Source: the human T2T-CHM13v2.0 reference genome, Homo sapiens. Taken from it: 64,000 bases of DNA. Under the pieces are notes generated by a model. The model saw only the letters and a program-made list of their open reading frames with translations, had not been told where the DNA came from and did no database searches. Made by a program: the position numbers and the translations under genes. Below, one piece after another: positions 46,001-47,205 of this stretch. The stretch is from NCBI RefSeq assembly GCF_009914755.1, contig NC_060928.1; one strand, given 5' to 3'. Within the stretch, counting starts at the first letter, position 1; each line of letters begins with the position of its first letter.

Positions 46001-47205
46001 ATCCAGAAAAAATACAGGAACAGAGGTATGACTAATCAAAGTGTAATTTGCGTACTTAAGACAGAGTATAAGTATGGAAAACTAAAGCAAAATCACTGAA
46101 AATGTATTTCATTTGAAAAGAATTCTTGCTAACAGAAATTAACTTCTAAGTAAAGCAGTGGAAATAATTGAACATTAATGAGCCAATTACAATCATAAGT
46201 ACTTTTTAGGGGATACTTTAGTGATTTTTGTCCTCTAATGAAATGAAAACCAACAGACTGGATTGAGAAGGCTGCTTTTTTTCTTGCTGTTGTGGTTGTT
46301 TTGCTCTTCCTCTGTAGTCTGGCTCAAAGGTAAGTGGGCTGTGAGGGGCTCCCCTGACCCCTTTCCTCAGCTCTCTAAGTTGGCTCTGAGATCACCACAG
46401 ATAAGGGCTGTGGTTCATGGGAGGTTTCTTAACCATGAAGCTTAAGATCCTTTTAAGGGGCAGGCTATCTTTCTATGGAGTGATTGGGGAATTTTGGAAA
46501 TCCTAGTCCCTCATGTGTTTCTCCTAGATAGATGAGTGATTTTTAACTTGCTAGAATCTGATTAATTCCTTAGGGAAGATTTAAGTTCTTTCTACTACTA
46601 TGGTTATACTCCAGGCAGAGCCCATGTGCTAGAATGGACTTCAGAACAGTGGCACATCCAAAGTGGAATCACACCTCTCATAGAGGCCTTGCACACACTA
46701 AGATCATGGCTAGCCTCTTCCTAGCCTTTTGTAAGGAGTGGCATCAGAAGCAAGTTTGATACTTTGTTACCCTGTTGATGTGTTGTTTCCTCATGGGGGA
46801 TAAGACTGCATGCTCATATTTCTCTTTTAGTGTGTATAAACTCTCTAAAGATGCTTTTAGGGCATAACAACTTCTAAAGGGAATAGAATGCCAGGGTTTG
46901 AAATATTTATCTTCTTTCACCTGGTTTAACATTAAATCATTTTCCTATGAGGTGGACATGCTTATTGATGTTCTTCTGATAAACTAAGCCGTAATTACCT
47001 CAAACATTGGTCATCTTAGTCGTGCGGTCCTGTTTTTCCCAGAATTATGGTGGGAATGATTTACAGAAACTGTAGATGTGAACGTGGATCACACTCTCAT
47101 AAAGAGAAAAATATATTTAATTGATATTATAAACCTCACTATCACTGTAAATCAATCCCTCTTTTCTTCTGCCTATTTAAGGAAACAAAGCAGGATGATG
47201 ACTGA
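583..47205 (+). CDS. GUCY1B1: Spliced CDS span (exons 2-14) of soluble guanylate cyclase subunit beta-1; start codon in exon 1 outside the window
   Basis: Joined exons translate [25 protein letters not shown]...NTGTEETKQDDD*, the recognised sGC beta-1 sequence. Exon phases are mutually consistent; total 1857 nt. Confidence 0.99.
3467..3696. mobile_element. MER58-type hAT-Charlie non-autonomous DNA transposon
   Basis: caagggccagcaaact...aaagggccagatagtaaat...agtttgatgacctctg termini; degenerate 8-bp TSD gtctagac/atttagac. Confidence 0.8.
4024..4135 (-). mobile_element. Alu left monomer / FLAM
   Basis: ctggtctcaaactcctg...cggcctcccaaagt...accacgcccagcc. Confidence 0.85.
7085..7330 (-). mobile_element. 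L1M (L1MA/MB-like) 3' end fragment
   Basis: tttattgagatataattgacaaataaaa...tatatttaaggtgcacaac...catcacctcacatag...aaatttcaagta. Confidence 0.8.
7735..7895 (-). mobile_element. MIR
   Basis: ttaatcctca...attatcctcattttgcaaatgag...gagctgggatttgaac. Confidence 0.7.
13192..13514 (-). mobile_element. Old Alu (AluJ-like)
   Basis: Diverged dimer with (gttt)n tail; TSD agaaaagagag on both sides. Confidence 0.93.
14310..15455 (+). mobile_element. L2 3' fragment interrupted by an Alu
   Basis: catctcaaacttaatatg, gcctcctaactggtctccct, and a 3' end resembling ccagaacaatgtctggcacctaatagggactcaac. Confidence 0.75.
14573..14781 (-). mobile_element. AluY-like element lacking its 3' end and tail
   Basis: gggttcacgccattctcc and ttcaccgtgttagccaggatgg diagnostics; no poly-T on the left side. 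Confidence 0.9.
15763..15863 (+). CDS. GUCY1B1: GUCY1B1 exon 3 (101 nt), [33 protein letters not shown]
   Basis: long pyrimidine tract ttttccag|AAAAG; CTCA|gtaagt. Confidence 0.98.
16091..16391 (-). mobile_element. AluJ-like
   Basis: gagacagggtct...ggctcaagtgatcctccca...cacgccaggcc. Confidence 0.93.
17213..17480 (+). mobile_element. AluS-like, 5' truncated
   Basis: cagcactttgagaggccgagg...gtgagactctgtctcaaaaaa. Confidence 0.93.
17714..18064. mobile_element. Tigger4/MER46 (Zombi)-type TcMar DNA transposon
   Basis: ta|cagggtgagtatc...gaccagaagtgttt...cagattaggtatgctccactta|ta inverted termini flanked by TA. Confidence 0.75.
18319..18437 (+). CDS. GUCY1B1: GUCY1B1 exon 4 (119 nt), [40 protein letters not shown]
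   Basis: aaaatag|ATCTC; CTACAG|gtaagc. Confidence 0.98.
19868..20290. mobile_element. MER33/MER3-like hAT element with a nested Alu monomer (FRAM/FAM ~19938-20083) and (TACA)n tail
   Basis: tccaataggacagccactag...gctgcaagtgtaaaatatacaccagat; monomer gtagtcccagctacttggaggctgag...gagaccctgtctc. Confidence 0.7.
22844..23182 (-). mobile_element. AluY with (tta)n tail and 13-bp TSD
   Basis: CpG-rich AluY diagnostics; TSD tgctatagtcaat at 22831 and 23183. Confidence 0.95.
23345..23900 (+). mobile_element. MLT1 (MaLR) solo LTR
   Basis: ccttgaatctgggttggctttagtgact...accaatcgaatggggcagaagtga...gccacatggagaggccacgtg...agctatggataactagacca. Confidence 0.75.
27064..27702 (-). mobile_element. AluS-like element with an AluY-like element (~27249-27568) inserted in its central linker
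   Basis: Right arm, full Alu, left arm; inner TSD aatttttgtattttc at 27234 and 27569. Confidence 0.93.
28837..29440 (-). mobile_element. MLT1 (MaLR) solo LTR
   Basis: attgctaccataacaaatgaccacaaactta...cacctggataatccaggataatct...cacatctgcaaaatccctt. Confidence 0.8.
30510..30707 (+). CDS. GUCY1B1: GUCY1B1 exon 5 (198 nt), carries the heme-ligating His105 (codon 30525-30527) and the YxSxR motif
   Basis: ttgctgcag|[27 protein letters not shown]...HYYSERE...IDMK; AAG|gtaaca. Confidence 0.98.
31915..32210 (-). mobile_element. AluY
   Basis: gcaagctccacctcccgggttcacgccattc...gagccaccgcgcccggcc. Confidence 0.95.
32245..32584 (+). mobile_element. Alu (AluY/AluSc-like)
   Basis: gcctgggcgcagtggctcacgcc...ctggctaacacggtg...long A-rich tail. 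Confidence 0.95.
33874..34172 (-). mobile_element. AluS-like
   Basis: Full dimer; TSD tattgtaacttt on both sides. Confidence 0.94.
34652..34882 (+). CDS. GUCY1B1: GUCY1B1 exon 6 (231 nt), [11 protein letters not shown]...AIYRVLPQ
   Basis: atatccag|GTTATT; CAG|gtaaaa; ORF track 34613..34891. Confidence 0.98.
35545..35720 (+). mobile_element. MIR
   Basis: cttactgtatgaccttgaacttattacttcacttctctcagcctgtttc. Confidence 0.6.
36137..36253 (+). CDS. GUCY1B1: GUCY1B1 exon 7 (117 nt), [39 protein letters not shown] (PAS domain)
   Basis: attttag|CTCCAG; AAG|gtaatc. Confidence 0.98.
37173..37306 (+). CDS. GUCY1B1: GUCY1B1 exon 8 (134 nt), [44 protein letters not shown]
   Basis: ccttttcaag|GAAGGA; CCAAG|gtaatc. 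Confidence 0.98.
38258..38558 (+). mobile_element. AluS-like with (taa)n tail
   Basis: cacacctgtaatcccagcac...gacactgtctcaaaataataat. Confidence 0.94.
39625..39931 (-). mobile_element. AluS-like with (ttg)n tail
   Basis: tgagatggagtctcgctctgtc...gagccactgtgcccagcc. Confidence 0.94.
40673..40870 (+). CDS. GUCY1B1: GUCY1B1 exon 9 (198 nt), [26 protein letters not shown]...EKKKTDT (coiled coil)
   Basis: atgacag|TGTCATG; GACAC|gtaaga; ORF track 40677..40874. Confidence 0.98.
43138..43375 (+). CDS. GUCY1B1: GUCY1B1 exon 10 (238 nt), [17 protein letters not shown]...NPFVYK; non-canonical GC donor
   Basis: tgaacag|ATTGCTG; TATAAG|gcaagt; the frame continues correctly into exon 11 (VETVGDKY). Confidence 0.97.
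44420..44560 (+). CDS. GUCY1B1: GUCY1B1 exon 11 (141 nt), [47 protein letters not shown] (cyclase domain)
   Basis: ctgttag|GTGGAG; CAG|gttagt. Confidence 0.98.
45053..45333 (+). mobile_element. 5'-truncated L1PA (about PA7-PA10) 3' end with poly(A)
   Basis: aaaaccaaacaccacatgttctcactcataag...cagaacttaaagtaaaataaaaa; 16-bp TSD aaaaattcatgtgtta at 45037 and 45334. Confidence 0.93.
45389..45543 (+). CDS. GUCY1B1: GUCY1B1 exon 12 (155 nt), [52 protein letters not shown]
   Basis: ttttgcag|ATAACA; ACAG|gtgaga; guanylate cyclase signature [15 protein letters not shown]. Confidence 0.98.
45899..46025 (+). CDS. GUCY1B1: GUCY1B1 exon 13 (127 nt), [42 protein letters not shown]
   Basis: tcttttag|ATGTC; GAG|gtatga. 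Confidence 0.98.
47182..47205 (+). CDS. GUCY1B1: GUCY1B1 exon 14 coding part, ETKQDDD*
   Basis: cttttcttctgcctatttaag|GAA ACA AAG CAG GAT GAT GAC TGA. Confidence 0.96.
   Translation, partial: ETKQDDD

What the first reader, a model, noticed from the sequence alone, without database searches (positions are those of the whole stretch)
46270..46335. Candidate 12-nt in-frame neural-type microexon (SGSK) in the last intron of GUCY1B1
Seen: a long U-rich tract gctgctttttttcttgctgttgtggttgttttgctcttcctctgtag, then TCT GGC TCA AAG (46318-46329), then the consensus donor AAG|gtaagt. Intron 13 is phase 0 (GAG|GAA), so inclusion is frame-preserving and gives ...[16 protein letters not shown]. Three TGC triplets lie in the tract, the last at 46302-46304, ~14 nt before the exon. 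Known: UGC motifs close to the 3' splice site, a strong donor and length divisible by 3 characterise SRRM4/SRRM3-dependent neural and endocrine microexons. Inference: a tissue-regulated sGC beta-1 isoform with two added serines in the C-terminal tail, absent from the canonical 619-aa protein. I cannot tell whether it is already catalogued.
Basis: partly seen in the sequence, partly recalled or inferred. Interest (0 to 1): 0.85.

Follow-up and report, generated by a model that had tools for sequence, protein, structure and literature searches.

The report
Unannotated microexon-like site in GUCY1B1
The last intron of the human nitric-oxide receptor gene GUCY1B1 holds a textbook-looking 12-base mini-exon, but nothing I could reach shows that cells use it, so it is most likely a silent or barely used look-alike.

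Summary
A 45-nt adenine-free U/G-rich tract with three TGC ends in TAG. It is followed by 12 nt (46318-46329) and a perfect AAG|GTAAGT donor, in a phase-0 intron. Inclusion would put SGSK seven residues from the beta-1 C-terminus.

The pair is rare. No equally good site occurred in 400 kb of random human DNA. A post-hoc estimate gives about 0.05 per Mb. It is the only strong internal donor, and the only good acceptor upstream of it, in the 1156-nt intron. The intron is single-copy.

No evidence of use was found:
- It is absent from the 8 RefSeq transcripts in the hub table.
- None of 63 vertebrate beta-1 protein representatives carries an insert there.
- It is absent from every microexon table I could open, including a mouse SRRM3/4-dependent list.
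- Five paper searches pairing the gene or enzyme name with "microexon" returned nothing.

RNA-seq junctions and cross-species conservation could not be tested.

Verdict: probably a cryptic pseudo-microexon (about 0.55). A real regulated microexon is about 0.12.

The parts
46262..46270 (+). Nearest possible branch-point adenines. The relaxed UnA motif UUGAG has its A at 46266, 52 nt before the exon. The only full yUnAy match within 100 nt is CUAAU, with its A at 46238, 80 nt before the exon.
   Evidence: Positions inferred from motif matches only; no branch point was mapped.
46271..46315 (+). A 45-nt adenine-free, AG-free U/G/C tract (T 26, G 10, C 9). It holds TGC at 46273, 46285 and 46302, UCUU at 46282 and 46305, and CUCU at 46304 and 46310. 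It is a candidate U2AF/PTBP1/SRRM4 binding region.
   Evidence: The motif definition UCU_CUC[N1-50]_UGC comes from passages of preprint 10.1101/2024.09.17.613571.
46315..46317 (+). Acceptor TAG. It is the only AG between exon 13 and the 46330 donor with at least 65% pyrimidine at -23..-4 (0.8).
46318..46329 (+). The 12-nt candidate microexon. It encodes S-G-S-K in the frame set by the phase-0 intron.
46327..46335 (+). Donor AAG|GTAAGT, a 9 of 9 match to MAG|GTRAGT. It is the only GT inside intron 13 that scores at least 6 on the matrix (12.61); the authentic exon-13 donor scores 7.42.
   Evidence: It is the only MAGGTRAGT on the + strand of the window.
46336..46348 (+). Two G-runs (GGG at 46336, GGGG at 46345), 7 and 16 nt into the downstream intron. 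They are possible hnRNP H/F-type intronic enhancers; that role is recalled, not tested.
   Evidence: positions only.
45899..46025 (+). Exon 13, encoding residues 571-612 of the 619-aa beta-1. Its donor GAG|GTATGA is weak (7.42).
   Evidence: 6jt0_B residues 571-612.
47182..47205 (+). Coding part of exon 14 (last 7 codons plus stop). Its acceptor has A at -3 (tttAAG|G).

Best explanation
The site is a cryptic (pseudo-) microexon. It is a well-formed pair of splice-site-like signals, 12 nt apart, in GUCY1B1 intron 13, and it is skipped in all or nearly all transcripts.

Proposed mechanism (inferred): the acceptor and donor are individually strong, but a 12-nt exon leaves too little room for U2AF at the 3' splice site and U1 at the 5' splice site to define the exon together without dedicated activators. 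The CU-rich run next to the AG is also the kind of sequence PTBP1 binds to repress such exons. The spliceosome therefore joins exon 13 directly to exon 14, with at most trace inclusion.

If it were included, the protein would gain SGSK between E612 and E613. That point lies seven residues from the C-terminus, in the tail that the shortest crystallised catalytic-domain construct lacks.
For: 1. It is not among the exons of the 8 RefSeq transcripts in the hub table, although GUCY1B1 is a long-studied gene.
2. None of 63 vertebrate beta-1 protein cluster representatives (primates to fish) has any insert between ...TE and the last 7 residues. All 4 short representatives are genomic read-throughs ending in ...EV.
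3. No GUCY1B3/GUCY1B1 microexon appears in the tables I could search:
   - Head 2021: 12 of 18 files, one hit in a gene-expression table only.
   - Ciampi 2022: 12 of 17 files, no hit.
   - MicroExonator: 7 files, no hit.
   - Li 2015: 4 of 5 files, no hit, while DAAM1 was found.
   - VastDB 2017: 7 of 8 files, only the 74-nt event HsaEX0029082.
4. In the Torres-Mendez 2022 supplement, mouse Gucy1b3 is listed only as a 141-nt 'HighPSI' exon, while Daam1 is 'eMICdep'.
5. Cryptic microexons that carry UGC and UCUC motifs yet stay below PSI 10 are a recognised class in VastDB (preprint 10.1101/2024.09.17.613571, Methods passage).
6. At about 0.05 per Mb, by my extrapolation a 3.1-Gb genome should hold hundreds of equally good chance pairs.
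7. The predicted unpaired probability of the tract is 0.30, against a mean of 0.44 (range 0.26-0.66) for the gene's 12 real acceptors. Neural microexons are reported to be unusually accessible there (PMC12871342 section 20).
8. The fold is no more stable than shuffles (z = +0.64).
Against: - The pair is much better than typical decoys. The donor outscores all 11 annotated GT donors of the gene. No equally good site was found in 400 kb of background. It is the only strong internal donor in the intron and has exactly one good acceptor upstream of it.
- Every sequence feature listed for SRRM3/4 microexons is present.
- It preserves the frame and has no stop codon.
- The sites it would compete with are weak: exon-13 donor 7.42 and an AAG acceptor on exon 14.
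- All my negatives are indirect. Clustering at 90% identity hides a 4-residue isoform. The supplement tables are subsets, and some files were not searched. Short-read aligners often miss 12-nt exons (abstract of PMC7821500, listing).
Confidence: 0.55

Rival explanations
1. It is a genuine neural/endocrine microexon. In neurons, retina or islets SRRM4/SRRM3 bind the UGC motifs, PTBP1 repression is lost and the G-runs downstream help. The 12 nt are spliced in and give a 623-aa beta-1 with SGSK in its C-terminal tail.
For: All testable cis-features are met. The length is 12 nt, in frame. The donor scores 12.61. UGC lies 13 nt before the exon and UCUU lies directly upstream of another UGC. There is no A for 45 nt, so the branch point sits at least 48 nt upstream, against a median of 45 nt reported for neural microexons (PMC12871342 section 20). 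UGC between branch point and AG is reported in 57 of 73 and 51 of 71 SRRM3/4-dependent microexons. The motif combination is rare at about 0.05 per Mb.
Against: It is absent from RefSeq (hub table), from every microexon table I could open and from the mouse eMIC-dependent list. 0 of 63 vertebrate protein representatives carry an insert. Five paper searches returned nothing. The tract is predicted to be less accessible than most real acceptors of the gene. The acceptor has a strong pyrimidine run right at the AG, whereas neural microexons are described as having weak 3' splice sites.
Confidence: 0.12
2. It is used at low level without regulation or function (splicing noise or a young primate-specific exonisation). 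A few per cent of transcripts or fewer carry the 12 nt wherever the gene is highly expressed.
For: Both sites are strong and compete with a weak authentic donor and an AAG acceptor. The flanking introns would be short, at 292 and 852 nt. Low-PSI 'cryptic' microexons are catalogued as a class.
Against: There are no data either way. It is absent from the annotation and tables listed above.
Confidence: 0.25
3. It is a decoy exon or U1/U2AF landing site that modulates removal of the last intron. Non-productive complexes on the pair would slow splicing of intron 13 and favour transcripts that read from exon 13 into the intron (one valine, then a stop). Alternatively, the 46330 donor serves as a distal alternative 5' splice site for exon 13.
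For: Protein models ending ...TEV (intron read-through) are present for several species: 6 of 63 representatives end exactly so, and 7 more read further into the intron. All 4 short representatives end in ...EV. In human, read-through gives V then TGA. The decoy-exon concept is recalled from the literature and was not looked up here.
Against: The read-through proteins from the unnamed contig source look like ORFs called on genomic DNA, so they are not evidence of retained-intron mRNA. Nothing links them to this element. An exon-13 extension would place a stop about 300 nt before the last junction, making it a likely NMD target (inference).
Confidence: 0.05

Closest known systems
SRRM4/SRRM3 (eMIC)-dependent neural, retinal and islet microexons (3-27 nt)
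   Same: It is 12 nt long and frame-preserving. It has a very strong donor, UCU/CUC plus UGC elements upstream, a UGC close to the AG and a long AG-free, A-free stretch that implies a distant branch point. The insertion falls in a terminal tail rather than in a folded domain.
   Different: No evidence of inclusion, of an SRRM4 response or of conservation. It is not in RefSeq or in any table I could open, and Gucy1b3 is not in a mouse eMIC-dependent list. The pyrimidine run reaches right up to the AG, and the tract is predicted to be rather paired.
Cryptic microexons / pseudo-exons (VastDB events with PSI < 10 in > 90% of samples, used as controls in preprint 10.1101/2024.09.17.613571)
   Same: Splice-site and UGC/UCUC motifs are present without appreciable inclusion (Methods passage). 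The site is unannotated.
   Different: Those events have at least some read support in VastDB. For this site I could not check whether any read exists.
Described splice variants of sGC beta-1
   Same: It would be an alternative-splicing product of the same gene. A review states that six beta-1 splicing variants have been reported (PMC11432225, passages).
   Different: The passages I saw describe beta-1 variants lacking HNOX fragments. None is a 4-residue insertion in the C-terminal tail. The primary papers on beta-1 variants were not held.

Membership tests
SRRM3/4-dependent microexon | Length 3-27 nt, usually a multiple of 3, frame-preserving | tested here: met
   12 nt in a phase-0 intron. 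It adds four codons with no stop.
SRRM3/4-dependent microexon | Strong 5' splice site | tested here: met
   AAG|GTAAGT scores 12.61 on a recalled matrix, above all 11 annotated GT donors of the gene (5.79-11.15).
SRRM3/4-dependent microexon | UGC between branch point and AG, with an upstream UCU/CUC element (UCU_CUC[N1-50]_UGC) | tested here: met
   UGC at 46273, 46285 and 46302. UCUU at 46282 abuts the second UGC and lies 16 nt before the third. The motif is also common by chance: 46 of 114 strong background acceptors have a TGC within 25 nt.
SRRM3/4-dependent microexon | Extended branch-point-to-AG distance (median 45 nt versus 34 nt) | tested here: met
   There is no A at 46271-46315, so any branch adenine is at least 48 nt upstream. 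The candidates are at 52 nt and 80 nt. The branch point is inferred, not mapped.
SRRM3/4-dependent microexon | Weak 3' splice-site context near the AG and an accessible, unpaired branch-point-to-AG region | tested here: not met
   The pyrimidine run CUCUUCCUCUGUAG lies directly at the AG. The mean unpaired probability is 0.30 against 0.44 for the 12 annotated acceptors. This rests on prediction only, so it is weak evidence.
SRRM3/4-dependent microexon | Inclusion in neural, retinal or endocrine RNA and skipping elsewhere | not testable with these tools
   No RNA-seq access. Indirectly, it is absent from RefSeq (hub table) and from the opened tables.
SRRM3/4-dependent microexon | Dependence on SRRM3/4 (eMIC domain) | tested here: inconclusive
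   In the mouse table, Gucy1b3 appears only as a 141-nt HighPSI exon and not as eMICdep, while Daam1 is listed as eMICdep. This was a look-up by gene name in one supplement file, for mouse only.
SRRM3/4-dependent microexon | Deep vertebrate conservation of the exon and its flanking intron | not testable with these tools
   No vertebrate genomes other than this one are held. 0 of 63 protein representatives carry an insert, but clustering at 90% identity would hide it.
Cryptic microexon / pseudo-exon | Splice-site-like pair with PSI below about 10 in nearly all samples and no annotation | tested here: inconclusive
   The motifs are present and it is unannotated (hub table). PSI could not be measured.

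The most novel reading that the evidence does not exclude
A real, so far uncatalogued, SRRM3/4- and PTBP1-controlled 12-nt microexon gives neurons, photoreceptors or islet cells a 623-aa sGC beta-1. The added Ser-Gly-Ser-Lys tail insert could be a phosphorylation or docking site that tunes localisation or turnover of the NO receptor.
Probability: 0.1. Interest if true: 0.55.

Novelty: new member of a known kind. Interest (0 to 1): 0.25.

Why it matters
sGC beta-1 is the obligate subunit of the nitric-oxide receptor and a drug target. A neuron- or endocrine-specific tail isoform would be a new handle on cell-type-specific NO-cGMP signalling. It would also show that microexon catalogues still miss events in well-studied genes. 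If, as I think more likely, the site is silent, it still has some uses. It is a clean natural example of a near-perfect microexon architecture that is not used, which makes it a good negative control for models of microexon recognition. It is also a place where a splice-affecting variant or loss of a repressor could switch on a cryptic exon. Either way it belongs to known kinds.

Tried and rejected
- **Repeat or transposon origin.** The 201 nt around the site and the whole 1156-nt intron each match only themselves in the genome. The search skips very common words, so ancient diverged repeats are not excluded.
- **Isoform in protein databases.** I searched exon 13 (42 aa) against the 5.8-billion-protein set, once for longer and once for near lengths. 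No representative has the insert. This is uninformative for 4-residue isoforms, because the set is clustered at 90% identity.
- **Conservation through read-through ORFs.** One rodent-like ORF (P0003) can be followed by eye from exon 13 to about the 5' edge of the tract and then ends. It says nothing about the exon itself.
- **A protein search with the 67-aa stop-to-stop frame across the site**. Not run: the frame has no ATG and the chance of finding orthologous ORFs seemed too low for the cost.
- **Stable or special RNA structure.** Rejected (z = +0.64, 147 of 200 shuffles fold at least as well).
- **Alternative longer exons.** There is no other acceptor upstream of the 46330 donor with at least 65% pyrimidine, and no other donor in the intron scoring at least 6. 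If the acceptor were used without the donor, a stop follows after 8 codons. The only poly(A) hexamer in the intron is ATTAAA at 46931.
- **RBFOX site.** The only UGCAUG in the intron is at 46807, 478 nt downstream of the donor. That is too far to argue from.
- **Larger genomic background.** The background stays at 200 kb.
- **Papers not held.** Irimia 2014 under my recalled id, Juan-Mateu 2023 by DOI, and two sGC splicing papers.
- **Supplements I could not see.** Both may list human microexons, including cryptic ones, and could bear on the claim. The Quesnel-Vallieres 2015 supplements held only 1,066 characters, with one of two files unsearched, so that look-up is uninformative.
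Full report
**What is there.**
- Exon 13 of GUCY1B1 ends at 46025 on a complete GAG codon, followed by GTATGA.
- Exon 14 starts at 47182 with GAA and carries the last seven codons and the stop. Intron 13 (1156 nt) is therefore phase 0.
- Inside the intron, 46271-46315 is a 45-nt stretch with no adenine at all (T 26, G 10, C 9), and therefore no AG.
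- That stretch holds TGC at 46273, 46285 and 46302, UCUU at 46282 and 46305, and CUCU at 46304 and 46310.
- It ends in TGTAG. Then come 12 nt (46318-46329), then AAG|GTAAGT.
- A script translation confirms that inclusion adds Ser-Gly-Ser-Lys without a stop, between the last residue encoded by exon 13 and the first encoded by exon 14.
- The PDB sequence search places exon 13 at residues 571-612 of the 619-residue beta-1 chain (6jt0_B). The insert would therefore lie between E612 and E613, seven residues from the C-terminus.
- The shortest crystallised catalytic-domain construct matches only the first 39 of the 42 exon-13 residues (4ni2_B). This fits a tail that is not part of the fold, which is my inference.

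**How unusual is it?** I scored donors with an approximate 5' splice-site weight matrix written from memory. It is not MaxEntScan, so the scores are relative only.
- The candidate donor scores 12.61. The 11 annotated GT donors of the gene score 5.79-11.15. One annotated donor is GC, and the last exon has none.
- The pyrimidine fraction at -23..-4 is 0.80 for the candidate acceptor and 0.55-0.90 for the 13 annotated ones.
- Within intron 13 the candidate donor is the only internal GT scoring at least 6. The candidate acceptor is the only AG upstream of it with at least 65% pyrimidine. The two signals therefore stand alone as a pair.
- A loose filter for microexon-like pairs finds 3 rows on the + strand of the window (two of them share an acceptor in intron 2, with lengths 22 and 26) and 1 row on the - strand.
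- The same filter finds 11 rows in 400 kb of single strand from 20 randomly placed 10-kb human stretches. Loose look-alikes therefore occur about once per 35 kb and mean little.
- None of the 11 background rows meets the strict combination that the candidate meets: donor score at least 12, pyrimidine at least 0.8, AG-free zone at least 40 nt, and TGC within 25 nt.
- From the observed densities (46 such acceptors and 13 MAG|GTRAGT donors in 528 kb), independence predicts about 0.054 strict pairs per Mb, or 0.019 per Mb with a length divisible by 3.
- That is about 0.003 for the part of the gene in the window.

These numbers flatter the site, because the thresholds were chosen after seeing it and the sample is small. 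By my own extrapolation they still imply a few hundred equally good pairs over both strands of a 3.1-Gb genome (size). On a recalled figure of about 1.2 Gb of sense-strand intron, some tens would lie within introns. Chance therefore remains a live explanation for any single unannotated instance.

**Not a repeat, no special fold.** The 201 nt around the site and the whole intron each match only themselves in the genome. The 141-nt RNA around the site folds no better than shuffles (z = +0.64).

**Fit to the known class.** Passages and section 10 of preprint 10.1101/2024.09.17.613571 describe SRRM3/4-dependent microexons as follows:
- strong 5' splice sites;
- strong but distant pyrimidine-tract and branch-point signals;
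- a bipartite enhancer UCU_CUC[N1-50]_UGC;
- a UGC between branch point and AG in 57 of 73 highly sensitive and 51 of 71 lowly sensitive events.

Section 20 of PMC12871342 gives a median predicted branch-point distance of 45 nt for human neural microexons against 34 nt for the exons they were compared with. It also reports weak 3' splice sites and an unusually accessible branch-point-to-AG region.

The candidate meets the length, frame, donor, UGC/UCU and distance features. Its nearest possible branch adenines are at least 48 nt upstream. There is a relaxed motif at 52 nt and a full yUnAy at 80 nt.

It does not match in two respects. A good pyrimidine run lies directly at the AG. The predicted unpaired probability of the tract is 0.30, against a mean of 0.44 (range 0.26-0.66) for the gene's 12 internal and terminal acceptors. 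Both points rest on prediction and are weak. [quoted passage not shown] Motif-bearing but unused microexons are therefore a known class.

**Evidence of use.** I found none.
- The hub's RefSeq table lists the exons of 8 transcripts, and none lies in intron 13.
- Searching the 5.8-billion-protein set with exon 13 returned 63 longer proteins from primates to fish. In 0 of 63 is there an insert between ...TE and the terminal heptapeptide.
  - Six of them end in ...TEV, which is read-through into the intron.
  - Seven read further into the intron.
  - A few gene models have unrelated tails.
- The 4 near-length hits are genomic read-throughs ending in ...EV.
- Because the set is clustered at 90% identity, a 4-residue isoform would be hidden. 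This is only weak negative evidence.
- Full-text searches returned 0 papers for each of these pairs: GUCY1B3 or GUCY1B1 with 'microexon', the same genes with 'micro-exon', and 'soluble guanylate cyclase' with 'microexon'.
- GUCY1B3 with SRRM4 returned one unrelated paper.

Supplement look-ups by gene name gave the following:
- Head 2021: 12 of 18 files searched, one hit in an expression table.
- Ciampi 2022: 12 of 17 files searched, none.
- MicroExonator: 7 files, none. I ran no positive control for gene names there.
- Li 2015: 4 of 5 files, none, while DAAM1 was found.
- VastDB 2017: 7 of 8 files, only the 74-nt event HsaEX0029082, which is exon 2, while DAAM1 was found.
- Torres-Mendez 2022: 1 file. 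Mouse Gucy1b3 appears only as a 141-nt 'HighPSI' exon, while Daam1 is 'eMICdep'.
- Quesnel-Vallieres 2015: only 1,066 characters held, so uninformative.

A review states that six beta-1 splicing variants are reported, and the passages I saw mention variants lacking HNOX fragments (PMC11432225). The primary papers were not held.

**What could not be done.** No RNA-seq, no VastDB or GENCODE, and no vertebrate genome other than this one are reachable. The three decisive tests (junction reads, SRRM4 response, conservation) therefore remain open. Irimia 2014 and Juan-Mateu 2023 were not held under the ids I tried.

**Reading.** The most likely account, at about 0.55, is a cryptic pseudo-microexon. 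Both signals are strong, but a 12-nt exon cannot be defined without dedicated help, and a PTBP1-type CU-rich element sits at the acceptor. Exon 13 is therefore joined directly to exon 14. The steric and PTBP1 parts of this account are inferred from general knowledge and were not tested.

| Reading | Probability |
|---|---|
| Cryptic pseudo-microexon, silent or nearly so | about 0.55 |
| Unregulated low-level inclusion | about 0.25 |
| Genuine SRRM3/4-type regulated microexon | about 0.12 |
| Decoy element or distal alternative donor affecting last-intron removal | about 0.05 |

The regulated-microexon reading stays alive because the architecture is so complete and because the authentic sites it competes with are weak: donor 7.42 and an AAG acceptor.

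**Novelty and score.** In every reading the site belongs to a known kind, either a regulated microexon or a cryptic one. It is unannotated, and in the searches named above it is not in print. I score interest at 0.25. The biological claim has no positive support, and even if it were true it would be a 4-residue insert in a terminal tail of unknown role.

Noticed in passing
window 43373-43381: The annotated exon 43138-43375 is followed by AAG|GCAAGT, so this GUCY1B1 intron is a GC-AG intron rather than GT-AG.
   Followed up: no
window 46026-46031: Read-through from exon 13 into intron 13 gives one valine and then TGA. Protein models ending ...TEV, or reading further into the intron, are present for several vertebrates: 6 and 7 of 63 representatives respectively. 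All 4 short representatives end in ...EV. The ones from the unnamed contig source look like ORFs called on genomic DNA.
   Followed up: partly
window 46023-46031 and 47167-47184: The authentic splice sites of the last intron are weak. The donor GAG|GTATGA scores 7.42, and the acceptor has A at -3 (tttAAG|G) despite a 0.9 pyrimidine tract.
   Followed up: no
window 46807-46812: The single UGCAUG (RBFOX-type hexamer) in intron 13 lies 478 nt downstream of the candidate donor and about 370 nt upstream of exon 14.
   Followed up: no
window 1647-1672 (+) and 59348-59350 (-): These are the other loose microexon-like pairs in the window. In intron 2, one acceptor has donors giving exons of 22 or 26 nt, neither a multiple of 3. 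On the minus strand there is a 3-nt AAG with a good tract and donor. They illustrate how often such pairs arise.
   Followed up: no
proteins P0025, P0028, P0045: Gene models from elephant seal, pangolin and wall lizard replace the terminal heptapeptide with unrelated longer tails after ...TE. They are either alternative last exons or annotation errors.
   Followed up: no
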